In this document: one piece after another, positions 1,969-40,333 of the stretch
Position numbering within the stretch: the first letter of the stretch is position 1
How the letters are laid out: every line of letters begins with the position of its first letter
Assembly: GCA_001780725.1 (NCBI GenBank)
Contig: MFIM01000005.1
Location: 2,127 to 66,126 of the forward strand
DNA: 64,000 nucleotides
From: Candidatus Giovannonibacteria bacterium RIFCSPLOWO2_02_FULL_45_28
GTDB taxonomy: Bacteria; Patescibacteriota; Minisyncoccia; UBA11713; 2-01-FULL-45-33
Reading direction: 5' to 3'
Program-made: the position numbers and the translations under genes
The notes under the pieces: model-generated
The model's input: only the letters and a program-made list of their open reading frames with translations
The model's database searches: none
What the model was told of the DNA's origin: nothing

Positions 1969-2007
1969 ACAACATAAAAATAAACCCGCCGGATGTCCAG
2001 CGAGTTA

Positions 2008-3431: not shown

Positions 3432-3475
3432 ATTGGAATATAACGCATTATCAAGTGCTTTGGTTTGTGTTGCGC

Positions 3476-3503: not shown

Positions 3504-3541
3504 ACTAACCAGAATTTAAAAAGGGAAGGATGGGTTGAAAG

Positions 3542-4597: not shown

Positions 4598-4604
4598 CCG
4601 TTTT

Positions 4605-5939
4605 TTATGTTAGCCTCTTAAATCCGCTGTGCGCTATCGGACCTTCAAGAAGGTTGCTGGTGGTTTTATTTTCTATTGACCGCTTTATTATTCCAAAAAC
4701 TTCGTCTACGGCTTTGAGATATGACTTAACATGATTTTCTTTGTGGGCGTAAGAAACATAAACGCTCAAGGCCGCGAGATATCCACGCTTCAGCATCTCC
4801 TGAATGAATAGGGTTTTGAGCGCCTGATTAATTTTGCCTCCGCCAGCCGGCGGATTGAATGAAAAGGTAATAAGCGGATTCGGCCCGACAACAGTAATAT
4901 CTAAACCGTGCTTTTCGGCCACAGCTTTCCACCCCTTCCCAATCCTCTCCCCGATTTTTCCCAGATGTTCCGGCACATGTTTTTTCTGCATCTTTTTAAT
5001 AGTAGCCAGCGCCGCCACAGGACCAACCGCTTCCGTCCAATAAGTGCTGGAGATAAAAGTTTTTTGCGCGGCGTCCATAACTCCCTTTCTGCCAATTACA
5101 GCCGCCATCGGATAGCCATTGCTCATAGCTTTGGCGAAAACAGCGATATCCGGGTTCACTCCGTATAAAAGATGTGCGCCTCCGACATTAAGCCGCCAAC
5201 CTATTGAAATTTCATCAAAAATCAAAACAGCGCCGATTTTTTTTGCTATTTGGGCAACTTTTTTTATAAAATCATTTTTAGGCTCCGTGTGCCGAAGCGT
5301 TTCCATTACAATTACTCCGATATCTTTGTTTGCGGCAGCAATCTTTTCAAGCGCGGCTATATCATTGTAATGGAACGGGAAAGCGGTGCCTTTTAACCCG
5401 CGCGGGACTCCGGCTGGATCAAGCCCGGGCAATAAATGGCCGTCTAAATTTTTCTTGTCGGCCAAGTTCGCTGCCAAATACCAGTCATGCCAGCCATGAT
5501 ATCCGCAGAATGCAATCTTGTCGCGGCCGGTGTATGCACGGGCAATTCTTACGGCAATTGACATCGCCTCCCCGCCGGTCCGCGCGAATCTCGCCATATT
5601 CGCCCAAGGATGGAGCTTGCAAAGAATTTCCGCAAGCTCCACTTCCTCCGGAGAATTTAGCGTGGACATTGAACCTAAATCCGCCGCCATTTTAACGGCG
5701 CGATTTACGTCCGGATCGGCATATCCCAAAACACAACTCCCGACGCCCATCAATGAAAAATCCTCATATTTATTTCCATCCAAATCCCAAACTTCTATAC
5801 CTTTGGCTTTCTTATAATAAGAAGGCCATCCACCAGGCAAAAACATTTCTGACCTTTTGGACAAGAGCTGGCTCCCGCCGGGAATTATTTTTTTAGCCCG
5901 CCTCCACAAAGCCGGCCCTTTTTTTATTAAAAGGTTCAT
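4605..5939 (-). CDS. class III (PLP) aminotransferase, glutamate-1-semialdehyde aminomutase-like
   Basis: 444 aa aligning along its length to the HemL/GSA-AT fold (…GVGSCVLGYADPDVNRAV…IFDEISIGWR…). Confidence 0.7.
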   Translation of the reverse strand: MNLLIKKGPALWRRAKKIIPGGSQLLSKRSEMFLPGGWPSYYKKAKGIEVWDLDGNKYEDFSLMGVGSCVLGYADPDVNRAVKMAADLGSMSTLNSPEEVELAEILCKLHPWANMARFARTGGEAMSIAVRIARAYTGRDKIAFCGYHGWHDWYLAANLADKKNLDGHLLPGLDPAGVPRGLKGTAFPFHYNDIAALEKIAAANKDIGVIVMETLRHTEPKNDFIKKVAQIAKKIGAVLIFDEISIGWRLNVGGAHLLYGVNPDIAVFAKAMSNGYPMAAVIGRKGVMDAAQKTFISSTYWTEAVGPVAALATIKKMQKKHVPEHLGKIGERIGKGWKAVAEKHGLDITVVGPNPLITFSFNPPAGGGKINQALKTLFIQEMLKRGYLAALSVYVSYAHKENHVKSYLKAVDEVFGIIKRSIENKTTSNLLEGPIAHSGFKRLT

Positions 5940-6895
5940 ATTTTCTTTGCACGAATTAAAACTTTTAAAACATTCTTAGCCGCCCTTAAGCCTTGGAGTG
6001 GTTCAGAGTTGTTTTTAATACAATTTAAAAAATGTTTTATTTCCTCAACAAACATTTTATTTAAATTTTTGTCTCCGCGATAAAGCTCTTTTTTTATTTT
6101 TCTGTCTTCAAAAATAAGGGTGTCCTCCCCGATATCCAGCGTCAGAGTGCCTTTTTCGGTCACAACCTCAATTCGATGCGTTGTTTTTTTGCAGATATAA
6201 TCCGAAGCAATGCCGGAGATAACACCATTTTTGTGTTCCAACATCAACACGGCCATCTCTTCGCTTTTGAATCCTAAAGGATGCTTATCACTCAAAAGCA
6301 ACGCCGCTTTTTTAATATCTCCGAAAAGAGCCGAAAGGTAATAAATTGAGTGGGTTACATGGTCTAAAATTACGCCTCCTCCCTCGGTTTTTTTCGCGAT
6401 ATAGCTTTTTTTATAATTTATATTTTTTCTGGCCCAAGGGATATAAAATCCCTGCGCCACACGGCAAAGCATCGCTTTGCCATAAACCATGCTTTTTAAA
6501 ACACTTTGAAGTTTTTTAAATCCTTCATAAAAAAGAAAATTGCAAGCAGGCATCACAACTTTTTTGCCGCGCGCTACTTTTTTGATTAAAGCGTCAACGC
6601 CGGCTAAATTGTTTGAAAGAGGCTTTTCAATAAAAACATGCGCGCCGTAGTTTAAAGCCAAACTTGCCGTCGGCACATGCAAATGCGTCGGATTGCAAAT
6701 AAAAACAATATTCGGCCGTTCTTTTTCTATGGCGGTTTTGGCGTTTTTGTATAAAGAAAAATTGCCAAGCAATGCAGCTACTTTTAATTTTTTCTCATCG
6801 GGATCAGAGACGACTAAATTTTTGTAACCTAACTTAAGTAAGTTTTTTAAATGCCTCGTCCCAATTGATCCCGCGCCAATAATCAAAATTTTCAT
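5936..6895 (-). CDS. Gfo/Idh/MocA-family NAD(P) oxidoreductase
   Basis: 319 aa with MKILIIGAGSIGTRH N-terminal Rossmann and EKPL motif. Confidence 0.7.
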   Translation of the reverse strand: MKILIIGAGSIGTRHLKNLLKLGYKNLVVSDPDEKKLKVAALLGNFSLYKNAKTAIEKERPNIVFICNPTHLHVPTASLALNYGAHVFIEKPLSNNLAGVDALIKKVARGKKVVMPACNFLFYEGFKKLQSVLKSMVYGKAMLCRVAQGFYIPWARKNINYKKSYIAKKTEGGGVILDHVTHSIYYLSALFGDIKKAALLLSDKHPLGFKSEEMAVLMLEHKNGVISGIASDYICKKTTHRIEVVTEKGTLTLDIGEDTLIFEDRKIKKELYRGDKNLNKMFVEEIKHFLNCIKNNSEPLQGLRAAKNVLKVLIRAKKI

Positions 6896-8034
6896 GTGGA
6901 TTTTAAAATCTTTATTAAAGTTTTAATCACGAAATTTTGTTCTGTGTTTTTGAGGCTTGGGAAAATCGGCAAAGATATTTCTGCTTCGTAAAATGCTTCG
7001 GCTTTGGGGCATAGGCCTTTTTTGTAGCCGAGTTTTTGATAATAAGGATGAAGATACACCGGAATATAATGAATTTGCGCTCCGATTCCGGCGTTGCGGA
7101 GTTTTTTTACAATTTCCGCGCGTTTATTCGCCGACTTTCCCGCGAAACGCAACGGATACAGATGCCAGCTAGAGCTCACGCCTACGTGCTCTTCCGGCAA
7201 AAGCAGATTTTTATTTTGCCTAATCGCTTCGCCGTAGCGCGAAGCGATTTTTTTCCGCGCGCTTATAAATTTATCCAGCTTTTTTAGTTGGGAAATCCCT
7301 AAAGCGGCATGGATATCCGTGAGCCTGTAATTAAAACCTAGCATCTGCATCCCCCGGCTCCCGATGCCGTGGTGTCTGAACTGTTTTAATTTTTCGTAAT
7401 AAATTTTACTGTTGGTCGCAACCGCCCCTCCCTCGCCGGTAGTAATTGATTTTACCGGATGAAAACTGAAAGTAGTCATATCGGCAATGCTGCCGATTTT
7501 TTTGCCTTTGTATTTGGCGCCCAAAGAATGCGCGGCGTCTTCTATTAAAACCAGTTTACGTTTGCGGGCTAGGCTTTTAAATTTATCTAAATTCGCCGGA
7601 TGCCCAGCGTAATCTACCACCGCCAATAATTTGGTTTTTCGTGTTATTTTTTTTTCCGCCTCCACCGGGTCAAGATTTCCATACTCATCAATATCGGCGA
7701 AAACAGGCCTTGCCCCAAGATACAAACCCGCGTTTGAGGTGGCCGCGAAAGTTAAAGGCGTTGTAATAAACTCGTCGCCGCGCCTCATTCCTGCAACAAA
7801 ATATGCGGCGTGCAATGCCGCAGTGCCGCTGGAAAAAGCTGCGGCGAATTTTGCGCCGCAATAGTGCGCAAGCGCTCTTTCAAATTCCCCAATTTTCGGT
7901 CCTTGCGTCAGCCAGTCTGATTTTAAAACGCTTTTTACCGCCTCAATATCGGCGTTATCAATTGATTGATGCCCGTAAGGAATCGTTGCTTTAGCAACGA
8001 TCCCGCCGCGGCGGGATGAAAACGTGGTTTTCAT
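6892..8034 (-). CDS. pseC: DegT/DnrJ/EryC1 aminotransferase, PseC-like
   Basis: 380 aa with the FSFHPVKSITTGEGGAVATN PLP-lysine region. Immediately downstream of pseB with an overlap-free junction. Confidence 0.65.
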   Translation of the reverse strand: MKTTFSSRRGGIVAKATIPYGHQSIDNADIEAVKSVLKSDWLTQGPKIGEFERALAHYCGAKFAAAFSSGTAALHAAYFVAGMRRGDEFITTPLTFAATSNAGLYLGARPVFADIDEYGNLDPVEAEKKITRKTKLLAVVDYAGHPANLDKFKSLARKRKLVLIEDAAHSLGAKYKGKKIGSIADMTTFSFHPVKSITTGEGGAVATNSKIYYEKLKQFRHHGIGSRGMQMLGFNYRLTDIHAALGISQLKKLDKFISARKKIASRYGEAIRQNKNLLLPEEHVGVSSSWHLYPLRFAGKSANKRAEIVKKLRNAGIGAQIHYIPVYLHPYYQKLGYKKGLCPKAEAFYEAEISLPIFPSLKNTEQNFVIKTLIKILKST

Positions 8035-8035
8035 T

Positions 8036-9016
8036 TTATGAAATTATGCTTAGAAAATCTTCTTTGTTTAAAATATCCACTTTATTGCTGGCGTATTGAA
8101 AACTCTTCGGAATGTATCCTGAAGATTGGGGGTGCGCCGCTTTCCACCAATCTTGCGCCGGCTCAACCAAGTAGTATTTTCCAATGTCCTTTGTCCTTCT
8201 GACTTCGTCTTCAGTCAGCAAAACCTCGTGCAGCTTTTCTCCGGGCCTTATGCCGATAATTTTGATCTGGCAGTTAGGCGCCGCCGCCGAAATCAAATCT
8301 TTCACTTTCATGGCTTTTAGTTTCGGCACAAAAATCTCGCCCCCCTGCATCGCGCCGAGGGCATTCAGCACCAGTCCCACTCCTTCGTCTAAAGTAATCC
8401 AAAATCGCGTCATGTCCTCGTGAGTTAGGGTTACTACTCCCTTATTTTTTTGCGAACTCAAAGTTTCCACAATACTGCCCCTGCTACCTACGACATTGCC
8501 GTATCTCACGGCGCTAAAAAACGGGGGCGAGGAACTCTCCCGCCTGTAAGAGTTTGCGGCAATTAGCAGTTTTTCCGCGCAAAGTTTGGTAGCCCCGTAC
8601 AAATTAATCGGATTGACGGCTTTGTCCGAAGAAATCAGCAAAACTTTCCCGACGTTGGAATCAAGTGCGGCATCAATCACATTCTGCGTTCCCAAAACAT
8701 TGGTTTTTACGGCTTCCAGTGGGTTATATTCCAGCGCCGGAACTTGTTTTAAGGCCGCGGCATGGACAACAATATCCACTCCGCGAAACGCCCTTTCCAA
8801 TCTTTGGAGGTCTCTTACGTCTCCCAAAAGAAACCTTAATTTGTCGTGATCGCCGAGCTTTAAGCGCATTTCGTGCTGTTTAAATTCATCGCGGCTAAAA
8901 ACAATAATTTTTCTGCACAAATCCAATCCCAAAAGTTTTTCCACGAATCTTTGCCCAAAAGACCCGGTGCCTCCGGTAACCAAAACAGCCTTATCTTTGA
9001 GAAACCCGTAGTCCAT
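8036..9016 (-). CDS. pseB: UDP-N-acetylglucosamine 4,6-dehydratase (inverting), PseB/FlaA1-like
   Basis: 326 aa with VLVTGGTGSFGQ...ISSDKAVNPINLYGATK (YxxxK) and CapD-like short architecture. Confidence 0.7.
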   Translation of the reverse strand: MDYGFLKDKAVLVTGGTGSFGQRFVEKLLGLDLCRKIIVFSRDEFKQHEMRLKLGDHDKLRFLLGDVRDLQRLERAFRGVDIVVHAAALKQVPALEYNPLEAVKTNVLGTQNVIDAALDSNVGKVLLISSDKAVNPINLYGATKLCAEKLLIAANSYRRESSSPPFFSAVRYGNVVGSRGSIVETLSSQKNKGVVTLTHEDMTRFWITLDEGVGLVLNALGAMQGGEIFVPKLKAMKVKDLISAAAPNCQIKIIGIRPGEKLHEVLLTEDEVRRTKDIGKYYLVEPAQDWWKAAHPQSSGYIPKSFQYASNKVDILNKEDFLSIIS

Positions 9017-9055
9017 AGTTATAGATTATAACTTTGAAAGACATTATGTAGTAAC

Positions 9056-10186
9056 TTAAGCATTCTCCGGTATTTTAAATAAAGGGCTTTCCGCCAAAAA
9101 CTTTTTTGAATTTTCTTGTATCTGTTTTTCCATATATTCTCGGTCAAAATAGCCTACCCATTTTATTTTTGGCAGCAGCATCCCGCCGTAGCGTTCTTTG
9201 AAAATACCTATAGAAATTTCTTTAGCGGTTGGGATATAAAACGGCTGCGGGCCATAAAACCTCTCTCCTATTTCATAAAATTTAAAGCCGTTTTTTTTAT
9301 AAAAAAGCATGGCTTCCCACTCCAAAAGATGGCGCGGAGAATATTCTTTTTCGTATTTTTCAACGTTGGCTTGCGACCAACCGAAGGCCATGAGAAAAAA
9401 CTCACCGCAATACAAATAACTTATCGGCGTATCACGAAGAAATGCGATAAAAAGCGAAGCGTGACCAGCACGGATTCCGTCCAGCATGGCATCCCATGTT
9501 GCTTGCGGGCGAGTCTGGCGGCCAGCCGCCGCGAGATGCGCCCCCTGAAATTGCCGGAACTGTTCCGGCGTCTCCGCAAAATTATTTTTGGAATTAAATA
9601 CCCTGATTGCGATGCCCCTTTTCGCTCCCCTTTTTATGTGGCGGTAATGGTATTTCCCCAAATTATCTGCTAGCGCTTCTTCTGATAAAGAAAGGTCGGT
9701 TACCAAAGTGTTCTCCACATAGTAATGCAGGCCATAACGCAGCAAGCCAAACGAATTTTCGTTCGCCAAGCGGCCAGCTCCGGACATTGCCAAACTGTTT
9801 AACGGATGCCAGCCGAAGCTTATCTGCCGCGCATTATGCACATTTCCGTAAGATTGATAAATATCCAAAATCTTATCCAACGTATCACGATATGTGCCAG
9901 CCGAAATGTCGCATAAAGCAGGCGCTCCGCAGGGAGAATGCCCGAAAGAGATCGCGGCAATATTTTCTTTATCAAAAAAACTTAAAGCCATTGGACAAAC
10001 AGCAACCGGTTCTTTATTTTTATCCAACAAAACAAACGATGCATTTTCCCTAACCTCTGGAAATTGGCTAATATAATTTATCCAGTGCCAAGTATGGTAA
10101 TAGCTCGCCGACCCACCCACTTTTTGGACCCAGCCGTCCCAAACGGCGGGATCAACATCTTTATAATAAATAATTTTTGGCTCCAT
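9056..10186 (-). CDS. FemAB / BioF2-like (Acetyltransf_6) GNAT-fold transferase
   Basis: 376 aa with LGKYHYRHIKRGAKRGIAIRVF (R..I.KA.K.G motif of FemAB/BioF2-like) and C-terminal GNAT-like region. Confidence 0.5.
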   Translation of the reverse strand: MEPKIIYYKDVDPAVWDGWVQKVGGSASYYHTWHWINYISQFPEVRENASFVLLDKNKEPVAVCPMALSFFDKENIAAISFGHSPCGAPALCDISAGTYRDTLDKILDIYQSYGNVHNARQISFGWHPLNSLAMSGAGRLANENSFGLLRYGLHYYVENTLVTDLSLSEEALADNLGKYHYRHIKRGAKRGIAIRVFNSKNNFAETPEQFRQFQGAHLAAAGRQTRPQATWDAMLDGIRAGHASLFIAFLRDTPISYLYCGEFFLMAFGWSQANVEKYEKEYSPRHLLEWEAMLFYKKNGFKFYEIGERFYGPQPFYIPTAKEISIGIFKERYGGMLLPKIKWVGYFDREYMEKQIQENSKKFLAESPLFKIPENA

Positions 10187-10187: not shown

Positions 10188-11648
10188 TTATCCAGCGTTT
10201 AATTTCTTTAATTCGGCCTCAATAGCCCCGGCGATATTCTCCGAGTTTTGCCGCACGCTTATTTTGGAAAGAGAAGTCCGCTGTATGTAAGGATGAAAAT
10301 ACGCTTGAAGACTTACCCTGTCCAGGCACGTCAAAAAATTAATGATTTTTTCTTGGGATACTTTAAATCCGTTTTTAATTTTTTCCAGCGCCTCCCGGCA
10401 AGATGCCGCGTCTTTAATTTTAAATACGCCTTCCGAATGCTGGTACCATGGGTAGCCAAAAATCAAAGCCGGCTTTCCGCGTAAAATCGCCTCCCAGCCA
10501 ACCGTACCGGCCCCTGTAGCCACCGCTTGCGAATGGCGGATTAATTGGAAAGAATCCGTTTCTATCGGCACAAGTCTTACATTCTTTAATTTGGCGATCT
10601 CCCTGTAATATCCTTTATATCTGCAATCATAATAATTAAGCCCACGCCGCAGCCAGACAATACGGTGCTCTTTTACATAAACCAACCAGCCTTCCGGAAG
10701 AACGGAAGCTAAAGTTTCAACCATCAAAATCTGGTCGGAAAAAACTCCGGCCTGCGGGCAAGTCTGCGCCTCCGGCTGGTATTGCAAAGTAACGTAAACA
10801 TATTTTTTACCGAAATCCGGCGCTGATTGGACGGAAAGGTGCTCTTTTTTAAGGTTGGGCCCGAACTGCCTTGGCAAGTAAGTAAGCGCTTTCCACAATA
10901 CGGAAATCTCCTTAAGCACGGTGAGCGTCGTCCACAAAGAACGGAGCTTTATTAAAAACTGGCTCAAACCTCTATATCTCACGAGATCCTCTTTTAGATA
11001 AAGCGGACTTTTGTCTCCGCCGTTTTCAGTTTGGCTTTTATAATGCGCTCTTGTGTCCGGATTTAAATCCGCCAAAGAAAATCGGCTGTACGCGTTTTCT
11101 TTGATTTGTTTTATCAGATCCGCCGAACCAGCCTTATAATCGTTCATCACTATCACCCAGCCGTTAGCGATCAAAATGTCTTCAAATATTATTATTTTAA
11201 TTCCTAGTTTCCTTGCCAGATCGTATATGACAAAATCGTACACCGTGTGCGGTATAGACGAATAAATAATCGCGTCCGGCTTTAATTTTTTAATCACGCC
11301 GTACCAATACTGGAGAAAATGATGATAAAAATGCTTACGCTGTTCAATCGGGCTCCATTCAAACTTTTTGTGCATCATAGTCAGAATTACAGATTCCGTT
11401 TCATAAAATTGTTTTAAAAGATCTTCGCCAGGCGGCAAAAAATCTAATGTATCTATGCCGTCAGCCGGCTTGCCCGCAAGCGCATCAAAAACATTATGGA
11501 AAACAGTTTTCGGAAATTTAGACTTATCAATACTTTCATCGCGAAAATAAGTCCAATAGACTATTTCGTGCGAGTTTTCTTTTAGTTTGAGGGCGGCATC
11601 TATCAAACCGAGCTCTTTCCCGTCCCAGCTTATTAAAAATAATTTCAT
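10188..11648 (-). CDS. Capsule_synth (KpsC/KpsS-like, PF05159) family protein; candidate ulosonic-acid transferase
   Basis: 486 aa with YVTLQYQPE ... VYVKEHR ... GYPWY patterns shared with the second copy at 23808..25313. Confidence 0.45.
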   Translation of the reverse strand: MKLFLISWDGKELGLIDAALKLKENSHEIVYWTYFRDESIDKSKFPKTVFHNVFDALAGKPADGIDTLDFLPPGEDLLKQFYETESVILTMMHKKFEWSPIEQRKHFYHHFLQYWYGVIKKLKPDAIIYSSIPHTVYDFVIYDLARKLGIKIIIFEDILIANGWVIVMNDYKAGSADLIKQIKENAYSRFSLADLNPDTRAHYKSQTENGGDKSPLYLKEDLVRYRGLSQFLIKLRSLWTTLTVLKEISVLWKALTYLPRQFGPNLKKEHLSVQSAPDFGKKYVYVTLQYQPEAQTCPQAGVFSDQILMVETLASVLPEGWLVYVKEHRIVWLRRGLNYYDCRYKGYYREIAKLKNVRLVPIETDSFQLIRHSQAVATGAGTVGWEAILRGKPALIFGYPWYQHSEGVFKIKDAASCREALEKIKNGFKVSQEKIINFLTCLDRVSLQAYFHPYIQRTSLSKISVRQNSENIAGAIEAELKKLNAG

Positions 11649-11652: not shown

Positions 11653-13434
11653 TTAAGTTCTTAAATTATAAACTTTAAAGAAATAAGAATCTTTGTCTTT
11701 TAGCAACTCCTTCGGCGCGCCCTCTTCAATAATTTTTCCGCCATCAAGAACCAACAGCCTGTCCGCAACCATAACCGTAGAAAGCCTGTGAGCGACAGCG
11801 AGAACCGTAACTCCCCCTTTCAAGCTTTCAATGGCTTTTTGGATGAGCGATTCCGATTCGTTATCTAAAGCGCTGGTAGCTTCGTCCAAAATCAAAACTT
11901 GCGGGCGCCTCGCAAGAACTCGCGCCAAAATAATTCTCTGCCTCTGGCCGCCCGATAGCAAAATACCGCGCTCGCCGACGGCCGTGTCAAATTTATTCGG
12001 CAAAGATTCCACAAAATCGTAGATGTTAGCCACCTTCGCGGCCTGCGTTATATCCTCGTCGGACACCGTGTCGCCGTAAAACTTTATATTGTTTTTAATA
12101 GTATCATTTAAAAGAAAAATATCCTGCGACACATATCCTATATTTTTCCGCCAATCCTCAATGCGGATATTTGAGGCATTTTCGCCGTCCAAGAAAATCT
12201 GCCCCTCCCGCGAGACATAAAGCCGCAAAATTAAATCAACGATTGTCGTTTTCCCGGCGCCGGATGGTCCGATTAACCCAACCATCTCGCCCTTTTTTAT
12301 TATAAAACTTACGTCATTAATGACTCCGCCGGCATTATCGTAAGCAAAACTTACATTTTTAAATTCTAGGCGATTATTGAATCCAAAATTTTTGATTCCG
12401 CCGTCTTTTTCTTTGCGTTTCATCATGCCGTTCCTGTAATTGTACACGCTGGCCAAATAAGGCGCCGATGAATAAATGGCTTGCGCGCTGGATTGCGCTA
12501 TCTGGATATAAGCCACTACTTTATTTATCGCATAAACGACTACCGCGAAAGAGGCAAAATTAAACGCAGTCGTTTTGTAAAAAAAAGCAAATATGCCGAC
12601 AACAAAAATCGCGCCCATCGGCTGCAGAAGCGCGGATGTGGCATTTCTTAATATATCAATTTTCATGTTCAAATCTTTCAACTTATCAAAATATTTCCTG
12701 CCTTTTTCTATAATACGCGCCCCAACCATAGCGGCCTTTACCGTTTTCATGCCGATTATGTTTTCGTTGACGAAGTGCGCCAGCTCTTTATACAATTTTG
12801 CGGTTTCTTCGGATATGCTTGCGTTTTTGCGAAACAGGGGTTTCAAAATAAAAAGCACGGCCGCCCCCAACAAAAGCGTGAGCGTGGCTATAATTGGCGA
12901 GATGTTGACCACAAGCAAACTGTACACCGCCAAATTGGCCACGACCAAAATTGAGTCGCTGATATAAGCAAGAAGCTTGGAGCTGTGGTTAATATCCGTA
13001 GTTAAAACCTGATCAAGGTGGCCAATTTTCTGCCGCGAGAGATATGGCCAGTCGGCTTTCAACGTCAACGCAAAAAGCTCGCTTCTGGTTTTAGTTGCGT
13101 ACATATAAGTAATTTTGGTTATAACAAAGTTCGCGAAAAACAAAACAACGGCCTTAATCAAAAACAGCACAATAATAAAGACCAGCAAAGAAGCGAGAGT
13201 ATAACTCAAATTGAAATAAGCAAAAAAGTTCTCTATCGTTTTTGAAATTATATCGGTCCCTTTGACCGCGTCGCGGCTTACAAAAGCAAACAGGGGAATT
13301 ATTGCGTTAATGCCGACGCCCTCCAAAATGCCGCTTACAAAACTCAAAATGGCCAATATAATTATCTGAAATTTATACCGGCCGAATTCTTTCCTGAAAA
13401 GACACAGCAAATCTCTTACGCTTGTTCCGTCCAT
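11653..13434 (-). CDS. ABC exporter, fused permease + ATPase (MsbA-like)
   Basis: 593 aa with an N-terminal 6-TM domain, Walker A GPSGAGKTT, ABC signature LSGGQRQR and Walker B ILILDEATSALD. Confidence 0.8.
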   Translation of the reverse strand: MDGTSVRDLLCLFRKEFGRYKFQIIILAILSFVSGILEGVGINAIIPLFAFVSRDAVKGTDIISKTIENFFAYFNLSYTLASLLVFIIVLFLIKAVVLFFANFVITKITYMYATKTRSELFALTLKADWPYLSRQKIGHLDQVLTTDINHSSKLLAYISDSILVVANLAVYSLLVVNISPIIATLTLLLGAAVLFILKPLFRKNASISEETAKLYKELAHFVNENIIGMKTVKAAMVGARIIEKGRKYFDKLKDLNMKIDILRNATSALLQPMGAIFVVGIFAFFYKTTAFNFASFAVVVYAINKVVAYIQIAQSSAQAIYSSAPYLASVYNYRNGMMKRKEKDGGIKNFGFNNRLEFKNVSFAYDNAGGVINDVSFIIKKGEMVGLIGPSGAGKTTIVDLILRLYVSREGQIFLDGENASNIRIEDWRKNIGYVSQDIFLLNDTIKNNIKFYGDTVSDEDITQAAKVANIYDFVESLPNKFDTAVGERGILLSGGQRQRIILARVLARRPQVLILDEATSALDNESESLIQKAIESLKGGVTVLAVAHRLSTVMVADRLLVLDGGKIIEEGAPKELLKDKDSYFFKVYNLRT

Positions 13435-14360
13435 GATTCTGGGATATGACCGCTTGCTATTGTGCGCGCGATGCCTTCGTCTAAAGTTATTTTTGGTTCG
13501 TAGCCAAGTATCCGTCTGGCCTTTGAGATGTCCGGAATCCTGTTTATGATTTCACGCGCGTTTTTGCGGTCCGCGTGCTCTTCTTTTACAAATTCTACTC
13601 CGAGATTATTTTTACCTGCCGAAGCCGTAACCTTATTTGCCAAATCCAGCATGCTGGTAGCCGCTCGGTCATTGCCGATATTAAACACGTGTCCATTTGC
13701 TTCTTTGCTGGTCAAAGCTAAATACACGCCCTCCACAGCATCGTCAACATAGCAAAACGATCTCACCTGTTTTCCGTCTCCGTTGATTATAGGCGGCGTT
13801 CCAATCATCGCAGCGCGGATAAATTTGGGAAGCACAAATTCCGCAACCTGTCCCGGCCCGTAAACATTAAAAAATCGGACAATGGAATAATCCAGCCCGT
13901 GCGTCTGATGATAAGCTTTTACGTATTCTTCTCCGGCCAATTTGGAAACTGCATATACTGATTTAGGAAAAGTTTTATCGTCTTCACTTATGGGAGTTTT
14001 CGCGGGTTCGCCATAAACCTCGGAGGATGAGGAAAGAACTATTTTTTTAATTCCCGCCTTAACCGCGGCGTCCAAAACATTGATTGTCCCAAGCGTGTTT
14101 ACGTTGAGGCATTTTAACCGCTGGTTTTCCGTGCGCGCGACGCCCAACACCGCTGCCAAATGCACAACGTAATCGCAGCCTTTCATTGCCTTATAAAGCT
14201 CGTCTGGAAACATTATTGTGCCAACAATGTGCTCTCCAACCGTTTTCGGCGGCTGAAAAAGGTCAAAAGTTTTTACTTCCAAACCCTTGGACGCAAAATA
14301 CTTGGCCATAGTGTGCCCAATAAATCCAGCGCCTCCGGTAATTAAAACTTTTTTGCTCAT
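13416..14360 (-). CDS. NAD-dependent sugar epimerase/dehydratase (extended SDR)
   Basis: 314 aa with VLITGGAGFIGHT...YAVSK (YxxxK). Confidence 0.75.
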   Translation of the reverse strand: MSKKVLITGGAGFIGHTMAKYFASKGLEVKTFDLFQPPKTVGEHIVGTIMFPDELYKAMKGCDYVVHLAAVLGVARTENQRLKCLNVNTLGTINVLDAAVKAGIKKIVLSSSSEVYGEPAKTPISEDDKTFPKSVYAVSKLAGEEYVKAYHQTHGLDYSIVRFFNVYGPGQVAEFVLPKFIRAAMIGTPPIINGDGKQVRSFCYVDDAVEGVYLALTSKEANGHVFNIGNDRAATSMLDLANKVTASAGKNNLGVEFVKEEHADRKNAREIINRIPDISKARRILGYEPKITLDEGIARTIASGHIPESWTEQA

Positions 14361-15508
14361 GTTTTATATTTTTTTACTATTTCTTGTATTGATGAAATGA
14401 CGTAATTCACTTCTTTGTTTTTCAAACCCGGGTAAATCGGGAGCGACAGCGCGTTTTTCTCAAAAGCAATTGAATTTGGAAACTCATTGTCATTATAACG
14501 CCCCATGCCTTTAAATACATTTTGCTTATGCAGGCATGGATAATATAATCTCGCCTGGACGCCTCTTAAGCCAAGCTCATCAATAAATTTATCCCTATCA
14601 ATAGATAAAGCTCCAGGAATCAGCATTATTGTGTAAAGCTGAAAATTAATATCTTTTCTGGTTCTTTCGTACGGAGTAACTATACAGCCAAGTTTATTGA
14701 GCTCTTTTGTGTAACGATGAGCAATGGACATTCTCATTGCCACAGCTCTCTCCAGCTTCGCAAGCTGAACAAGGCCTATCGCCCCCATCGTTTCCGGCAT
14801 CCGGAAATGAAAACCGAATTCGTGCCACTGAAATTTGTTTATGTCATAAAAATTTCTGATTAGTTTGCATTTTTTTGCCAATTCCGCATTGTTGGTTGTA
14901 ATCATTCCCCCCTCGCCCGTAGTCATCGGCTTTGAGGGAGTAAAACTAAAAATGCCGATATCGCCTATTCCGCCCACTTTCCTGCCATTATACTCCGCCA
15001 AATGAGCTTCCGCCGCGTCTTCTACGACAAACAGTTTGTGTTTTCTTGCGATTTTTAATATCGGATCCAAATCGCATGACTGCCCGGCATAGTGAACCGG
15101 AATAATAGCTTTGAGTTTTTTCCGCCTGCTGGCGGGCAGGTTTGCAATTCTTTTGACAATGGCTTCTGGGTCAATACCGTAAGTTTTCATCTCAATATCC
15201 GCAAATACCGGCCTCGCTCCAAGATATAAAGAAGAAGAAGCCGTGGAAATAAATGTCATATTAGGAACAATGACCTCGTCTCCGCGCCCGATACCCAAAG
15301 CCTGCTGGACCACAAGCAAAGCCGATGATCCGCTGTTTACCGCAATGGCGTATTTAACGCCGATTTTTTTGGCGAATTCCCGTTCAAATTTCTCCACTAA
15401 AGGACCGGATATCAAATAGCCGGATTTCACTACGCGGTAAGCCGCTTCTGGCTCTCTCCGGTCAAACCACGGCTTGGCCAAATTAATCTTAATTTTTTTC
15501 TTTGCCAT
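14357..15508 (-). CDS. DegT/DnrJ/EryC1 aminotransferase
   Basis: DegT domain begins at MAKKKIKINLAKPWFDRREPEAA. The ORF-track N-terminal 97 aa extension overlaps the upstream gene and is probably not translated, so the ATG at 15508..15506 was chosen. Confidence 0.7.
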   Translation of the reverse strand: MAKKKIKINLAKPWFDRREPEAAYRVVKSGYLISGPLVEKFEREFAKKIGVKYAIAVNSGSSALLVVQQALGIGRGDEVIVPNMTFISTASSSLYLGARPVFADIEMKTYGIDPEAIVKRIANLPASRRKKLKAIIPVHYAGQSCDLDPILKIARKHKLFVVEDAAEAHLAEYNGRKVGGIGDIGIFSFTPSKPMTTGEGGMITTNNAELAKKCKLIRNFYDINKFQWHEFGFHFRMPETMGAIGLVQLAKLERAVAMRMSIAHRYTKELNKLGCIVTPYERTRKDINFQLYTIMLIPGALSIDRDKFIDELGLRGVQARLYYPCLHKQNVFKGMGRYNDNEFPNSIAFEKNALSLPIYPGLKNKEVNYVISSIQEIVKKYKT

Positions 15509-15542
15509 TTGTATATAAATAACTAATCCAAACGCCGTAGTG

Positions 15543-16607
15543 TTACTTGCCATATTCGGGAAAAAACTCTGCGGATTCGTAAGCCAATTCGCTTTCTTTT
15601 TTTCCGGCAAGCGCGCAAAGCTCTTTATATTTCGGCAAATTATGGATTTTTTTATACATATAAAAATCCCTTGTTTTTTGGGAAAATGATTTTTTAAATT
15701 CAAAAAGCTTGTCGTCTTCGGCGCCGGATCGCCCGCCGCCCAAATCGTAATATTTATAACCCACCGTTTTCGACCAAACCACAATTTCGTCCACCACAAA
15801 ATCGTTTGGCCTCAAGTCAAGAAGGGCTGGATCCGATGCACGCAAATAATCGTAAAGCGTTTCGCCGCATCCCAAAACCACCGAGGAGGCGGCTAATTTA
15901 CCATCAAAGTAAACGTTAAATAACTCCGCGCCGTCCCGCAAACTTTCAAACATATCCAAAAAAAACTTTTGATTAAAATAATAAAACGGTCTTGTTTCTT
16001 TTCTGTGCTTAAGCGAAGCCGTGTAAAGATTAAAAAACTTTTTAATGCCGTCTTCATCTTTTTGGCGCACAACCTTGAGTCCGCTACGGTGTGCTTTATT
16101 TATATTTTTTCTTGCTTTATATAAATATTCTTTGCGTACGGATTCCAAATCCTGATTTAAATCTATGTATACAATTTTTCTATTAAACGGCGTTTGAGCA
16201 TCGCTTTCATAAAACTTGTGGTTTTCAAGCATTGGATTAAGCCTTTGAAATTCGCTTACGATATTATTTTCTAAACAATATTTATTAAGCTCCGGCAAAA
16301 AGTTATTTATATGAATTCGGGCCGTCTCTATATTTTTAAAATTATATATCGGCCCGCCGTAATACCACGAAGAAACCATGTCTTTATACGGAGCCGCGAA
16401 CGGTAAAGTCCTTTCAAAAATCGGCAGGAGGATTTTGCAGGCGCCGCTATCGTAATAAAAATATATCGCCCGCTCTCCGGTGTAATTTTGAAAGAGCCGC
16501 AAATAACGCGGGTCGGAATATATGTCCGCCTTCGGGAACCACGCGAGTATTTTTTTTATCTCGGCCTCGTCCTCCAGTGTTAGTGTTTTTAAACTATATT
16601 GGACCAT
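15543..16607 (-). CDS. FemAB / BioF2-like (Acetyltransf_6) GNAT-fold transferase
   Basis: 354 aa with VRKEYLYKARKNINKAHRSGLKVV motif. Paralogous in fold to 9056..10186. Confidence 0.5.
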   Translation of the reverse strand: MVQYSLKTLTLEDEAEIKKILAWFPKADIYSDPRYLRLFQNYTGERAIYFYYDSGACKILLPIFERTLPFAAPYKDMVSSWYYGGPIYNFKNIETARIHINNFLPELNKYCLENNIVSEFQRLNPMLENHKFYESDAQTPFNRKIVYIDLNQDLESVRKEYLYKARKNINKAHRSGLKVVRQKDEDGIKKFFNLYTASLKHRKETRPFYYFNQKFFLDMFESLRDGAELFNVYFDGKLAASSVVLGCGETLYDYLRASDPALLDLRPNDFVVDEIVVWSKTVGYKYYDLGGGRSGAEDDKLFEFKKSFSQKTRDFYMYKKIHNLPKYKELCALAGKKESELAYESAEFFPEYGK

Positions 16608-17716
16608 TTGCCTAGAATTTTTATTATTTTGTCATCTGCATTTTTTTGGGCGTAAGGATTATGAATACGCGTTATCTTCCGCCTGAATTTGGCGGACATG
16701 ACTCGCCTGAACGCCGAGATAATGCTGGCTTTATTATGGCCTGCATCAATAATATTGGCGACGCGTTCCCGGCCTTCCTGCCTTAAACCAATATTTACCG
16801 CCGGCAAACCAAAAGATGGCGCTTCAAAAAGCGCGCTGCTTGAATTGCCGACCATCGTGCTTGCCAAACTCATAAGACCTAGAAAATCTCTACGCGGAAT
16901 ACTTTTAAAAACGCGGAGATACGATAATTTTTGATATTTTTTTATAACCGCGATGATTTGTTTGCTGCCGGAATCGGAATTGGGATATATAAGCACGGAT
17001 TGCATCTGCAATTTTTTTAAAGCCTCCATAGTTTGGCGCATCTGCTCTCCGGCGCGGTCGGGCTCCGTGGTAACCGGGTGCTGTACAACCAGCAAAACAG
17101 GACGGCTTAAATCAAGTTTATACTTTTTGGCAATCGCCAGTTTATCTTCTTTGCTGAAACTATGCTTCTCTGACATTCCGGGGTTACCGACCGCGAACAC
17201 GAATTTTTTATTTTCGCCCATGCGGACGAGATTTTTGGCGCTTTTTTTACTTTCTGCAAAATGCAAAGTGGAAAACTTGGTAATGGCGTGCCGCACCCGT
17301 TCATCTATTGTCGCTCCGGTAGTCATATCTCCGCCAGATATATGCGCCACGGGAATGTTAAGATGTGAGGCCGCGATTGCCGCGGCAAGCAATTCTCCGC
17401 GGTCTCCGGTTACCATCACCAAATCCGGCCGTTCACGTAAAAACGCGCCGGTGATGCCGAGGATTCCGTAGCCGACAGATTTGGCCATGCCGGCAAGACT
17501 GCTGTCTTCAACATGCATATTCACTTTAGCCGCAATCCGGAACTTGTCCTTTTTTATATCCTCCAATGTAAAACCGTGTTTTTTGCTAAAATGCATTCCG
17601 GTCACAATTAAAGACAAATTAAATTTTCCGGAAGCCCGCATCTTAAGTAGCAATTCCTTCATTACTCCGTACTCTGCTCGCGACCCGGTAACATAAATTA
17701 TTTTTTTCGTTTTCAT
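16589..17716 (-). CDS. neuC: UDP-N-acetylglucosamine 2-epimerase (hydrolysing), NeuC/LegG-like
   Basis: 375 aa with IIYVTGSRAEYGVMKELL...LIVTGMHFSKKHG, characteristic of NeuC. Confidence 0.7.
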   Translation of the reverse strand: MKTKKIIYVTGSRAEYGVMKELLLKMRASGKFNLSLIVTGMHFSKKHGFTLEDIKKDKFRIAAKVNMHVEDSSLAGMAKSVGYGILGITGAFLRERPDLVMVTGDRGELLAAAIAASHLNIPVAHISGGDMTTGATIDERVRHAITKFSTLHFAESKKSAKNLVRMGENKKFVFAVGNPGMSEKHSFSKEDKLAIAKKYKLDLSRPVLLVVQHPVTTEPDRAGEQMRQTMEALKKLQMQSVLIYPNSDSGSKQIIAVIKKYQKLSYLRVFKSIPRRDFLGLMSLASTMVGNSSSALFEAPSFGLPAVNIGLRQEGRERVANIIDAGHNKASIISAFRRVMSAKFRRKITRIHNPYAQKNADDKIIKILGKWSNIV

Positions 17717-40323: not shown

Positions 40324-40333
40324 ATTCTGTGTT

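What the first reader, a model, noticed from the sequence alone, without database searches (positions are those of the whole stretch)
10188..11648. KpsC/KpsS-like (Capsule_synth) protein beside the Pse block: candidate nonulosonic-acid transferase
486 aa with the Capsule_synth-type conserved blocks (…LQYQPE…, …VKEHR…). The family's characterised members (KpsC/KpsS) are retaining beta-Kdo transferases using CMP-Kdo. Kdo and nonulosonic acids are both CMP-activated ulosonic acids, so a Capsule_synth homolog is a logical CMP-Pse/Leg transferase. A second homolog (23808..25313, with YPLQYEPE / FYIKEHPAMFGY) sits immediately beside the other NulO operon. One such gene per NulO pathway is a striking arrangement.
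Basis: partly seen in the sequence, partly recalled or inferred. Interest (0 to 1): 0.6.

Follow-up and report, generated by a model that had tools for sequence, protein, structure and literature searches.

The report
Predicted nonulosonic-acid transferases in a CPR bacterium
Two unannotated genes in a sugar-coat gene island of an ultra-small (Candidate Phyla Radiation) bacterium are distant relatives of a known pseudaminic-acid transferase and most likely attach sialic-acid-like sugars to a surface glycan; this kind of enzyme is already known, so they are new members of it.

Summary
Window 10188-11648 is a real 486-aa gene on the minus strand, here called CAPS1. It carries LQYQPE and VKEHR and matches Pfam PF05159 above threshold, as does the paralog at 23808-25313 (CAPS2).

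The window comes from a Candidatus Giovannonibacteria (CPR) contig and is one large glycan island.

Both proteins give confident GT-B models whose best global fits are the KpsC and WbbB Kdo transferases. By sequence they lie closer to the Acinetobacter baumannii K-locus KpsS1-type protein (hhalign 99.3-99.4%, E about 1e-20). KpsS1 is the characterised retaining pseudaminic-acid transferase that founded family GT118.

In 80 related CPR loci the CAPS1 gene has two typical neighbours:
- an MsbA/PglK-type ABC exporter directly upstream (43 loci, plus 8 tandem cases)
- PseB-PseC directly downstream (32 loci).

The operon's PseI lies 8.2 kb beyond the window start.

What is new:
- a very large, unannotated, mostly CPR subfamily
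- its coupling to an ABC exporter
- a [H/Q]xQPE motif with Glu where KpsC has its Asp nucleophile.

A strict one-transferase-per-pathway rule is not seen across loci. No biochemistry exists for either protein.

The parts
10188..11648 (-). CAPS1: 486-aa GT-B protein of the Capsule_synth superfamily, predicted CMP-nonulosonate (Pse-type) glycosyltransferase
   Evidence: ORF and translation. PF05159 32.5 bits. AlphaFold model pLDDT 94.4, pTM 0.92. Foldseek KpsC 8fux_B TMt 0.47. hhalign to the A. baumannii KpsS1-type protein 99.3%, E 5e-20.
10770..10784 (-). Q289-Y-Q-P-E293 motif of CAPS1. E293 takes the place of the Asp nucleophile in the QXXXD motif of KpsC.
   Evidence: E293 is 82/82, P292 81/82 and Q291 79/82 conserved; position 289 is H/Q/S/N. 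The HMMER alignment of CAPS2 PLQYEPE to KpsC PGQVESD puts Glu on Asp. The A. baumannii KpsS1-type protein has HFHPE.
10662..10673 (-). K326-E-H328-R329: the 'HP' CMP-binding motif of CAPS1, with Arg in place of Pro
   Evidence: H328 is 74/82 and P329 68/82 in the family; R occurs in only 2/82, and in 1 of 25 members of its own subclade. It aligns to YVKVHP of KpsC 6mgb. The A. baumannii enzyme has VKDHK.
11247..11252 (-). P133-H134, an invariant pair in the N-terminal (acceptor-side) domain, specific to the CAPS1 family
   Evidence: P 82/82 and H 80/82. The pair is absent from CAPS2 and from the A. baumannii protein. It lies 2 residues after the position that aligns with KpsS1 Glu132.
23808..25313 (+). 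CAPS2: 501-aa paralog, predicted transferase for the second (Leg/Neu-type) nonulosonic acid
   Evidence: PF05159 39.9 bits. Model pLDDT 90.6, pTM 0.90. Foldseek KpsC 6mgd_B TMt 0.61 and 6mgb 0.57. hhalign to the KpsS1-type protein 99.4%, E 4.6e-21. Motifs PLQYEPE (24735-24755) and KEHP (24852-24863).
11653..13434 (-). ABC exporter (transmembrane domain plus ATPase) ending 4 bp before the CAPS1 start; candidate flippase or exporter of the glycoconjugate
   Evidence: ABC_membrane plus ABC_tran. The best NCBIfam models are HepA, MsbA and PglK, all below cut-off. It is adjacent upstream of CAPS1 homologs in 43/80 loci, plus 8 tandem cases.
530..10186 (-). Pse-type biosynthesis block downstream of CAPS1. 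Minus-strand genes in order: FemAB-like 9056-10186, PseB 8036-9016, PseC 6892-8034, GFO/IDH/MocA 5936-6895, class-III aminotransferase 4605-5939, KdsB-like cytidylyltransferase 2637-3431, DUF218 2008-2640, methyltransferase 1078-1968, GNAT 530-1081. An unknown ORF on the plus strand lies at 3542-4597.
   Evidence: The operon continues beyond the window start to PseI (L081).
13416..20088 (-). Leg/Neu-type NulO block upstream of the ABC gene: LegB-like dehydratase, DegT aminotransferase, FemAB-like, NeuC, NeuB, methyltransferase, PseF-like cytidylyltransferase
20081..23809 (-). Sulfation genes at the head of the same operon, divergent from CAPS2: sulfotransferase, APS kinase, and a pyruvate-kinase-barrel/PUA/ATP-sulfurylase fusion
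   Evidence: The start of the fusion is probably 23788.

Best explanation
CAPS1 (window 10188-11648, minus strand) is a soluble or peripheral GT-B glycosyltransferase. It belongs to the nonulosonic-acid branch of the Capsule_synth superfamily, the branch whose prototype is A. baumannii KpsS1 (GT118).

Its C-terminal Rossmann domain would bind a CMP-activated nonulosonic acid. The residues expected to do this are the KEH(P) motif, R343, the WEA motif (E386) and K392-P393. Catalysis would involve the invariant Glu293 of the QPE loop, which sits where KpsC and WbbB have their Asp nucleophile.

The donor is most likely the pseudaminic-acid derivative made by the genes that follow it in the same operon, from PseB and PseC through to PseI. 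The acceptor is unknown. The most likely acceptor is a lipid-linked glycan built at the cytoplasmic face by the GT2 and GT4 enzymes of the island. The product would then be flipped or exported by the MsbA/PglK-type ABC transporter encoded 4 bp upstream.

CAPS2 (23808-25313) is a paralog that probably does the same job for the Leg/Neu-type acid made by the divergent operon.

Shown here: homology, fold, motif conservation and synteny. Inferred: donor identity, acceptor, stereochemical outcome and the role of the ABC exporter.
For: Family and fold:
- PF05159 is above threshold for both proteins.
- Both models are confident GT-B folds. KpsC and WbbB give the highest TM-scores among the PDB hits: 0.44-0.47 for CAPS1 and 0.57-0.61 for CAPS2, against about 0.3 for other GT-B enzymes.

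Link to a characterised Pse transferase:
- The 480-aa ORF L087:11404-12846 follows PseB, PseC, PseF, PseH, PseI and wzx in an A. baumannii K locus. It has Y131-E132, as reported for KpsS1 (PMC12887879).
- It aligns to the CAPS1 profile at 99.3%, E 5e-20, over 306 columns, and to the CAPS2 profile at 99.4%, E 4.6e-21, over 337 columns.
- Shared residues across CAPS1, CAPS2, the A. baumannii protein and a Rhizobium homolog are P292, E293, L317, P318, Y324, K326, Y348, P393 and G398.

Synteny in 80 CPR loci:
- An ABC exporter is adjacent upstream in 43 (plus 8 tandem cases). PseB is adjacent downstream in 32. Overall PseB occurs in 59, PseC in 50 and a NeuB-family gene in 50.
- Loci with only a Pse block still carry ABC-CAPS1, for example L024, L036 and L043.
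- The PseI of this operon was found on the same contig.
- CAPS2 sits divergent from a complete Leg-type operon in L086 as well.

Other:
- The CAPS1 profile has no similarity to PseG (0.5%).
- Literature precedent: PMC4487303, PMC12887879, PMC5420450.
Against: - There is no biochemical or genetic data for any member of either CPR family. All are annotated 'hypothetical'.
- Identity to the KpsS1-type enzyme is only 23-33% and confined to the C-terminal two thirds.
- The proposed general base of KpsS1 (Glu132) is not conserved. It aligns with S130 of CAPS1.
- This particular copy has Arg in place of the Pro of the HP motif, the only such case among 25 members of its subclade.
- CAPS1 lies between the Leg-type block and the Pse block. 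Assigning Pse to CAPS1 and Leg to CAPS2 therefore rests on adjacency statistics only.
- Some CAPS1 homologs are followed by NeuB/NeuC-type genes instead.
- No canonical PseG was found in these operons, so the exact sugar made is uncertain.
- No initiating phosphoglycosyltransferase was recognised in the window.
Confidence: 0.7

Rival explanations
1. The donor assignment is swapped or mixed. CAPS1 would transfer the Leg/Neu-type acid made by the genes upstream of the ABC exporter, CAPS2 would transfer the Pse derivative, or either enzyme would accept both.
For: CAPS1 is in the same transcription unit as the Leg-type genes as well as the Pse genes. Thirteen CAPS1-family genes in related loci are followed by NeuB, NeuC or a PseF-like gene rather than PseB. 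Sequence subclades do not separate by neighbour type. One CAPS2 homolog (L084) sits near PseB-like and DegT genes with no NeuB within 10 kb.
Against: The commonest arrangement is CAPS1 directly followed by PseB-PseC (32 adjacent plus 5 nearby of 80). Pse-only loci keep CAPS1. In tandem pairs the window's subclade is the PseB-proximal copy in 7 of 8 cases. CAPS2 in L086 has only a Leg-type operon beside it.
Confidence: 0.15
2. CAPS1 is not a transferase. It would be a nucleotide-sugar hydrolase or epimerase of GT-B fold that replaces the missing PseG step of the Pse pathway.
For: No PseG homolog was detected in the window, in L081 or in 80 related loci. The best Foldseek E-values are to UDP-GlcNAc 2-epimerases, 4e-8 and 2.7e-9. 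A few CAPS2 homologs carry a precomputed PF02350 hit.
Against: The epimerase superpositions are poor (TMt 0.23-0.35, rmsd 14-19), whereas KpsC gives TMt up to 0.61. hhalign of the CAPS1 profile against A. baumannii PseG gives probability 0.5%, against 99.3% for the KpsS1-type protein. The conserved motifs are those of CMP-ulosonate transferases. CAPS1 homologs also occur in loci that have NeuC and need no PseG. A. baumannii has both PseG and KpsS1.
Confidence: 0.06
3. CAPS1 is a beta-Kdo transferase like KpsC or KpsS. It would build a Kdo linker or Kdo-containing polymer that the adjacent ABC transporter exports.
For: The only solved relatives by sequence are KpsC modules, at E 1e-6 and at 2.9e-10 with the profile. 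The cytidylyltransferase at 2637-3431 scores best against KdsB models, at 78 bits, below cut-off. An ABC transporter is adjacent.
Against: No KdsA-type synthase was found in the window. The only ulosonate synthases are the NeuB-type gene and PseI. The KdsB-like gene is syntenic with PseB, PseC and PseI in 30/80 loci. The QXXXD Asp is replaced by Glu, as in the Pse transferase. The ABC protein is an MsbA/PglK-type half transporter, not a KpsMT-type pair.
Confidence: 0.04
4. CAPS1 is a polymerising or priming enzyme. It would make a nonulosonic-acid homopolymer, or start a chain on a lipid, for ABC-transporter-dependent export, rather than adding one residue to an oligosaccharide.
For: There is tight, conserved pairing with an ABC exporter. 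Tandem pairs of two distinct CAPS1 subclades occur in 7-8 loci, reminiscent of KpsS plus KpsC. A Rhizobium plasmid homolog (28.9% identity over 495 aa) sits in a locus with an ABC-2 permease/ATPase pair, KpsF and NeuB/NeuC genes, which is typical of rhizobial K-antigen loci.
Against: The island also encodes three GT2 enzymes, one GT4 enzyme and many other sugar pathways (heptose, 6-deoxyhexose, aminosugars), which suggests a heteroglycan. KpsS1, the nearest characterised enzyme, adds a single side-branch Pse (PMC4487303). Nothing in the sequence separates processive from single addition.
Confidence: 0.15

Closest known systems
KpsS1 of Acinetobacter baumannii (retaining Pse5Ac7Ac alpha-2,6 transferase; prototype of CAZy GT118; Walklett et al. 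2024 as cited in PMC12887879; predicted earlier by Kenyon et al., PMC4487303)
   Same: Same superfamily: PF05159 covers only the C-terminal domain in all three proteins, at 53.5, 32.5 and 39.9 bits. Similar length (480 against 486 and 501 aa). Shared signature of P-E loop, Y-V-K-[E/D]-H, [W/Y]-E-A and K-P. hhalign 99.3-99.4%. The gene lies next to a Pse biosynthesis module in each case. The Pro of the HP motif is dispensable in both (HK against HR).
   Different: Only 23-33% identity. The N-terminal ~110 residues do not align. The proposed base Glu132 (YE motif) is not conserved. CAPS1 instead has an invariant P133-H134. KpsS1 works in a Wzx/Wzy pathway with wzx next door, whereas CAPS1 is paired with an ABC exporter. 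The host is a CPR bacterium rather than a proteobacterium.
KpsC and KpsS (GT107 and relatives) and WbbB (GT99), retaining beta-Kdo transferases
   Same: GT-B fold with the best global structural match. HP-type motif and a carboxylate in the loop after the first strand of the C-terminal domain. CMP-activated ulosonic acid donor.
   Different: Sequence similarity is limited to about 70-110 residues: E 1e-6 for CAPS1 (73 residues) and 4.8e-4 for CAPS2 (about 110 residues). QXXXD becomes [H/Q]xQPE, with Glu for Asp and the conserved Gln shifted two positions. There is an 8-residue insertion after the HP motif. No Kdo genes are nearby.
Gtr59 family (A. baumannii KL12/KL63, E. coli O108 orf10), predicted acinetaminic or 8-epilegionaminic acid transferases (PMC4487303)
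   Same: PF05159 members encoded next to NulO modules. This is a precedent for Leg-type donors, which is relevant to CAPS2.
   Different: No Gtr59 sequence was available to compare. Their function is itself only predicted.
Tannerella forsythia Tanf_01245 / TFUB4_00887 (NCBIfam NF046086, BFO_1060 family), Pse and Leg derivative transferases of protein O-glycosylation (PMC5420450)
   Same: GT-B enzymes with an HP motif, encoded beside the NulO locus. Pse-specific and Leg-specific forms differ mainly in the N-terminal region.
   Different: Only weak hits to the family model, 22.9 and 39.2 bits against a cut-off of 200. CAPS1 and CAPS2 are not members.

Membership tests
Pfam PF05159 Capsule_synth | Score above the curated gathering threshold (20 bits) | tested here: met
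   CAPS1 32.5 bits, E 8.1e-8. CAPS2 39.9 bits, E 4.5e-10. Only the C-terminal half of the profile is matched. The A. baumannii KpsS1-type protein shows the same partial coverage.
Retaining Kdo-like GT-B transferases (GT99/GT107/GT140 as summarised in PMC12887879) | QXXXD motif: Gln binding the carboxylate and Asp as nucleophile | tested here: not met
   The Asp position is an invariant Glu (E293 82/82; CAPS2 E316 invariant). The residue four before it is H/Q/S/N, while the conserved Gln (Q291, 79/82) is two before it.
Retaining Kdo-like GT-B transferases (GT99/GT107/GT140) | HP motif binding CMP | tested here: inconclusive
   His is conserved (H328 74/82; CAPS2 H351 at 90% or more). Pro is present in CAPS2 and in 68/82 CAPS1 relatives, but this CAPS1 has Arg.
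Retaining Kdo-like GT-B transferases (GT99/GT107/GT140) | GT-B fold superposable on KpsC or WbbB | tested here: met
GT107 (KpsC) | Significant sequence similarity over the whole catalytic module | tested here: not met
   For CAPS1, only aa 331-403 align to KpsC modules, at E 1e-6 (2.9e-10 with the profile). For CAPS2, about 110 residues (307-417) align, at E 4.8e-4.
GT118 (KpsS1) | Sequence similarity to KpsS1 across the catalytic domains | tested here: inconclusive
   hhalign 99.3% and 99.4%, E 5e-20 and 4.6e-21, 306 and 337 columns, 23% identity. BLASTP gives 25.5% over 231 aa and 32.8% over 131 aa. The comparator was identified as KpsS1-type by locus position and Y131-E132, not by accession. 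Whether CAZy would place such distant sequences in GT118 cannot be decided here.
GT118 (KpsS1) | YE motif with Glu132 as the proposed catalytic base (PMC12887879) | tested here: not met
   It aligns to Y129-S130 in CAPS1 (family: F/Y followed by S/P/Q/R) and to F-S/A in CAPS2.
GT118 (KpsS1) | Transfer of Pse from CMP-Pse with retention of configuration | not testable with these tools
   This needs enzyme assays and NMR of the product.
NCBIfam NF046086 BFO_1060 family glycosyltransferase (T. forsythia NulO transferases) | Score above the curated cut-off (200 bits) | tested here: not met
   22.9 and 39.2 bits.
Bacterial sialyltransferase families, Maf flagellin NulO transferases, and TagB/TagF glycerophosphotransferases | A Pfam match to the corresponding family | tested here: not met
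   PF05159 was the only Pfam family at E <= 0.01 for either protein. The polysialyltransferase 5wcn appears only as a generic GT-B hit with TMt 0.23.
PseG (UDP-sugar hydrolase of the Pse pathway) | Sequence similarity to PseG | tested here: not met
   hhalign of the CAPS1 profile against A. baumannii PsaD gives probability 0.5%.

The most novel reading that the evidence does not exclude
CPR (Patescibacteria) bacteria would carry their own, very large clade of KpsS1-like nonulosonic-acid transferases, hard-wired to an MsbA/PglK-type ABC exporter. This would define an ABC-dependent route that puts two different sialic-acid-like sugars, one possibly sulfated and one with an unusual acyl group, on the surface of ultra-small episymbionts.

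Within this, CAPS2 would be a KpsC-fold enzyme acting on a Leg/Neu-type acid with an equatorial C5 substituent. That goes against the recent prediction that retaining Kdo-like GTs cannot readily adapt to such donors (PMC12887879). The enzymes would use a Glu rather than an Asp nucleophile, with a different general base (His134 in CAPS1).
Probability: 0.25. Interest if true: 0.65.

Novelty: new member of a known kind. Interest (0 to 1): 0.4.

Why it matters
Nonulosonic-acid transferases are the least known step of bacterial sialic-acid-like glycan synthesis. Only one Pse transferase of this fold has been characterised in vitro.

The two genes here belong to large, wholly unannotated families. 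The CAPS1 profile alone finds 10,609 cluster representatives at 50% identity at E <= 1e-3, and 3,880 at E <= 1e-30. These families would give many new donor and acceptor specificities and natural variants of the catalytic motifs.

They also indicate that Candidate Phyla Radiation bacteria, which have genomes of about 1 Mb and live attached to hosts, invest heavily in surface glycans carrying pseudaminic and legionaminic-type acids. I found no paper in the held library that discusses this. Such glycans are obvious candidates for host attachment or phage evasion.

The practical gain is annotation: 'hypothetical protein' can become 'putative CMP-nonulosonate glycosyltransferase, KpsS1-like'.

Tried and rejected
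- The Walklett 2024 paper is not held. KpsS1 properties come second-hand from PMC12887879.
- No KpsS1 sequence could be fetched by name. I recovered a KpsS1-type protein from an A. baumannii chromosome filed among the plasmids. I checked it by locus order and the Y131-E132 motif. Source names say only 'LipB/KpsS family'.
- The test of 'one transferase per NulO synthase' within +-10 kb in 35 fully flanked loci gave no 1:1 pattern. The counts of (transferases, synthases) were (1,0) 7, (1,1) 12, (1,2) 6, (2,0) 5, (2,1) 3 and (2,2) 2. The test is weak, because in the window itself PseI is about 18 kb from CAPS1.
- Clustering CAPS1 homologs by sequence did not separate those followed by PseB from those followed by NeuB/NeuC.
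- A search for PseG with A. baumannii PsaD found nothing. The unknown ORF at 3542-4597 has no Pfam, NCBIfam or PDB match and no similarity to PsaD.
- The two large membrane proteins have no family match even at E 5.
- Literature searches for NulO in CPR or Patescibacteria found nothing relevant.
Full report
**Observation.**
The ORF at window 10188-11648 is real but lies on the minus strand. The plus-strand frame is full of stops, and the minus-strand frame gives a 486-aa protein starting with ATG. I call it CAPS1.
- Its stop is 1 bp before the start of the next gene, and its start is 4 bp after the stop of the preceding gene, so it sits inside an operon.
- Pfam PF05159 (Capsule_synth) matches at 32.5 bits, E 8.1e-8, above the gathering score of 20. 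Only residues 281-416 match, corresponding to profile 145-279 of 310.

The second gene, 23808-25313 on the plus strand (501 aa, CAPS2), has PLQYEPE and KEHPAMFGY. It matches PF05159 at 39.9 bits. Homolog N-termini support the ATG at 23808.

The two proteins share 28% identity over 165 residues by BLASTP. Their family profiles align over 370 columns with hhalign probability 100% and E 2.9e-48.

**Source and setting.**
CAPS1 is 100% identical to a 'hypothetical protein' of a Candidatus Giovannonibacteria MAG, a Parcubacteria member of the Candidate Phyla Radiation. GC content is 43%. The whole 64-kb window is a glycan biosynthesis island.

Reading the minus strand in the direction of transcription, the genes are:
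- a pyruvate-kinase-barrel/ATP-sulfurylase fusion, APS kinase and a sulfotransferase
- a PseF-like cytidylyltransferase and a methyltransferase
- NeuB (NeuB_NnaB model, 416 bits against cut-off 399.65) and NeuC (416 against 235.9)
- a FemAB-like protein, a DegT aminotransferase and a LegB-like dehydratase
- an ABC exporter, then CAPS1
- a FemAB-like protein, PseB (414.4 against 407.75) and PseC (444.4 against 423.5)
- a GFO/IDH/MocA oxidoreductase and a class-III aminotransferase
- a KdsB-like cytidylyltransferase, DUF218, a methyltransferase and a GNAT.

No second synthase lies in the window. The same contig continues beyond the window start with an SDR, a TylF methyltransferase, an aminotransferase, a 2-hydroxyacid dehydrogenase, an acyl carrier protein, an AMP ligase, a glyoxalase, a phosphopantetheinyl transferase and a B12 radical-SAM enzyme. 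A clear PseI follows (476.8 bits against cut-off 340.25) 8.2 kb from the window edge.

CAPS2 is transcribed divergently from the sulfation/Leg-type operon. At most 19 bp separate the two start codons.

**Fold.**
AlphaFold models built on family alignments are confident:
- CAPS1: pLDDT 94.4, pTM 0.92.
- CAPS2: pLDDT 90.6, pTM 0.90.

Both show two Rossmann-like domains joined by a long helical insertion, which is a GT-B architecture. Foldseek against the PDB returns only GT-B enzymes.

The lowest E-values go to UDP-GlcNAc 2-epimerases, but with poor global superposition (TMt about 0.23-0.35). The highest TM-scores go to the retaining beta-Kdo transferases:
- CAPS1: KpsC 8fux 0.44-0.47, WbbB 0.35.
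- CAPS2: KpsC 6mgd 0.61 and 6mgb 0.57, WbbB 0.46-0.47.

By sequence the only solved relatives are KpsC modules. For CAPS1 the match is E 1e-6 over 73 residues, improving to 2.9e-10 with the profile. For CAPS2 it is E 4.8e-4 over about 110 residues.

**Catalytic motifs.**
The literature defines this enzyme class by a QXXXD motif (Gln binds the sugar carboxylate, Asp is the nucleophile) and an HP motif that binds CMP (PMC12887879).

In the HMMER alignment, CAPS2 PLQYEPE lies on KpsC PGQVESD, so the last Glu takes the place of the Asp. Across 82 CAPS1 relatives:
- this Glu (E293) is invariant
- P292 is 81/82 and Q291 is 79/82
- the position four residues before the Glu is H, Q, S or N.

The family motif is therefore [H/Q]-x-Q-P-E rather than QXXXD. 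CAPS2 relatives have an invariant P315-E316.

The His of the HP motif is conserved (H328 74/82; CAPS2 H351). The Pro is present in 68/82 CAPS1 relatives, but this copy has Arg. It is the only such case in its 25-member subclade.

Other near-invariant residues are R343, E386, R390 and K392-P393. In the N-terminal domain they are H51, E85 and an invariant P133-H134 that CAPS2 lacks.

**Link to a characterised nonulosonic-acid transferase.**
Kenyon et al. (PMC4487303) proposed in 2015 that PF05159 members encoded beside NulO modules are NulO transferases. Their examples were KpsS1, KpsS2 and Gtr59, with cases in Photobacterium, Bacteroides, Sphingobium and E. coli. According to PMC12887879, Walklett et al. 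2024 showed that KpsS1 is a retaining Pse5Ac7Ac transferase and the founder of GT118.

A tblastn search of the plasmid collection hit an A. baumannii chromosome filed there. In that record:
- the 480-aa ORF at L087:11404-12846 follows PseB, PseC, PseF, PseH, PseI and wzx
- it has the Y131-E132 motif reported for KpsS1
- it belongs to a cluster seen on at least 1000 contigs and named 'LipB/KpsS family'.

Its motifs are PIHFHPE and YVKDHK. The Glu-for-Asp change and the loss of the HP proline therefore also occur in the Pse transferase.

The family profiles compare with it as follows:
- CAPS1 aligns at 99.3% probability, E 5e-20, 306 columns.
- CAPS2 aligns at 99.4%, E 4.6e-21, 337 columns.
- Pairwise BLASTP gives 25.5% over 231 aa and 32.8% over 131 aa, about the same as CAPS1 against CAPS2.

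A joint alignment leaves these residues invariant: P292, E293, L317, P318, Y324, K326, Y348, P393 and G398. The proposed base of KpsS1, Glu132, is not conserved. It aligns with S130, two residues before the CAPS1-specific His134.

Both proteins give only faint hits to the Tannerella forsythia NulO transferase family, at 22.9 and 39.2 bits against a cut-off of 200 (PMC5420450).

**Distribution and synteny.**
- CAPS1 relatives number at least 129 in the word-indexed search, nearly all from CPR MAGs and none annotated.
- A scan of one genome per species found 410 loci. The best 80 are almost all from Patescibacteria MAGs; a few carry other or unspecific labels.
- A full profile search of 1.84 billion cluster representatives found 10,609 proteins at E <= 1e-3 and 3,880 at E <= 1e-30. 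Some lie outside CPR, for example in Acidobacteriota.
- CAPS2 has at least 659 relatives, again CPR.

Mapping the window's proteins onto the 80 loci shows a conserved order: ABC exporter, CAPS1, PseB, PseC, then variable modification genes, the KdsB-like cytidylyltransferase, DUF218 and a PseI-like synthase. A Leg-type block often lies upstream of the ABC gene. The counts are:
- the ABC gene is adjacent upstream in 43 loci, plus 8 where a tandem CAPS1 copy intervenes
- PseB is adjacent downstream in 32.

Tandem pairs combine two distinct subclades. The window's type is the PseB-proximal copy in 7 of 8 pairs.

CAPS2 homologs lie divergently upstream of ABC-CAPS1 in about 10 loci. In L086 a CAPS2 homolog lies divergently beside a complete Leg-type operon with the same downstream genes as in the window.

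A Rhizobium plasmid carries a full-length homolog (28.9% identity over 495 aa). Its locus has an ABC-2 transporter pair, KpsF, NeuB, NeuC and a cytidylyltransferase.

**Mechanism proposed.**
CAPS1 binds a CMP-activated Pse derivative in its C-terminal domain and transfers the sugar to an acceptor held by the N-terminal domain and helical insertion.
- The link to Pse rests on synteny.
- The chemistry (retention, a Glu293 adduct, His134 as base) is inference from KpsC, WbbB and KpsS1.
- The ABC protein is a fused transmembrane/ATPase half-transporter whose best models are HepA, MsbA and PglK, all below cut-off.
- No Wzx was found in the window. I therefore infer that the finished lipid-linked glycan is flipped or exported by this transporter.
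- Two paralogous polytopic membrane proteins without any family match (33635-35389 and 36387-38174) could act on the outer side.

CAPS2 probably serves the Leg/Neu-type acid.

**Rivals.**
- A swapped or relaxed donor assignment cannot be excluded, because CAPS1 lies between both blocks and subclades do not sort by neighbour.
- A PseG-replacing hydrolase is suggested by the absence of PseG. It is contradicted by the motif set and by hhalign (0.5% to PseG against 99.3% to the KpsS1-type protein).
- A Kdo transferase is unlikely without any Kdo synthase.
- A polymerising or priming role is compatible with the ABC pairing and the tandem copies, and remains open.

**Verdict.**

These are new, distant members of a known kind. 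The noteworthy points are:
- the size and CPR bias of the two families
- the conserved ABC-exporter coupling
- the altered motifs
- the context of two NulO pathways plus sulfation in a reduced genome.

'One transferase per pathway' fits this window, but it is not a general rule within +-10 kb across 35 loci.

Noticed in passing
window 20081-23809 (-): A 733-aa fusion of a pyruvate-kinase barrel, a PUA_2 domain and ATP sulfurylase is followed by APS kinase and a sulfotransferase, at the head of the operon that makes the Leg/Neu-type acid. This suggests a sulfated surface glycan or sulfated nonulosonic acid. The same trio occurs in L077, and the fusion plus APS kinase occur in L014.
   Followed up: partly
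window 33635-35389 (-) and 36387-38174 (-): Two paralogous polytopic membrane proteins (584 and 595 aa) have an N-terminal bundle of 5-7 predicted transmembrane segments and a soluble C-terminal domain. Neither has any Pfam or NCBIfam match, even at E 5. ORFs of the same size with no Pfam hit lie near CAPS2 homologs in L084 and L086. They are possible GT-C-like transferases or polymerases.
   Followed up: partly
window 530-10186 and L081; 80 related loci: No PseG (UDP-sugar hydrolase) homolog is detectable in these Pse operons. A DUF218 protein (2008-2640) and a KdsB-like 264-aa cytidylyltransferase (2637-3431) are conserved there instead of canonical PseG and PseF. The enzyme doing the hydrolase step is unknown.
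   Followed up: partly
L081 10552-18613 (same contig, beyond window position 1): Between the GNAT and PseI the operon encodes an SDR, a TylF methyltransferase, an aminotransferase, a 2-hydroxyacid dehydrogenase, an acyl carrier protein, an AMP-dependent ligase, a glyoxalase-fold protein, a phosphopantetheinyl transferase and a B12-binding radical-SAM enzyme. This points to an unusual carrier-protein-derived acyl substituent on the pseudaminic acid.
   Followed up: no
window 3542-4597 (+): A 351-aa ORF on the opposite strand sits in the middle of the Pse operon. It is conserved at 49-60% identity in L024, L036 and L043, and has no Pfam, NCBIfam or PDB match.
   Followed up: partly
window 23788-23810: The start codons of CAPS2 (23808) and of the divergent sulfurylase fusion (23809, or more likely 23788) are back to back, with at most 19 bp between them. 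Both promoters must therefore lie inside the neighbouring coding sequence.
   Followed up: partly
window 53232-54801 (-): An HNH endonuclease and a C5 cytosine DNA methylase (a restriction-modification-like pair) are embedded in the glycan island.
   Followed up: no
window 49662-58476 (-): This region holds a heptose-type nucleotide-sugar pathway (transaldolase-like, HAD phosphatase, SIS isomerase, nucleotidyltransferase, GHMP kinase) and a NUDIX-GNAT fusion. A carbamoyltransferase lies at 46164-47813 and C-methyltransferase/dTDP-sugar genes at 39457-42630. The glycan is likely a complex, heavily modified heteropolymer.
   Followed up: no
L007, L009, L019, L022, L027, L035, L078: Tandem CAPS1-CAPS1 gene pairs always combine two distinct sequence subclades in the same order. 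The window's subclade is the second, PseB-proximal copy. This indicates an old duplication with divided roles.
   Followed up: partly
L088 (Rhizobium sp. WL3 plasmid NZ_CP042825.1, 613116-634564): A cultured Rhizobium carries a full-length CAPS1-like gene annotated 'hypothetical'. It sits among three other unannotated ~450-510-aa genes, an ABC-2 transporter pair, HisH/WbuZ amidation genes, KpsF, NeuB, NeuC and a cytidylyltransferase. This would be a tractable organism for testing the family.
   Followed up: partly
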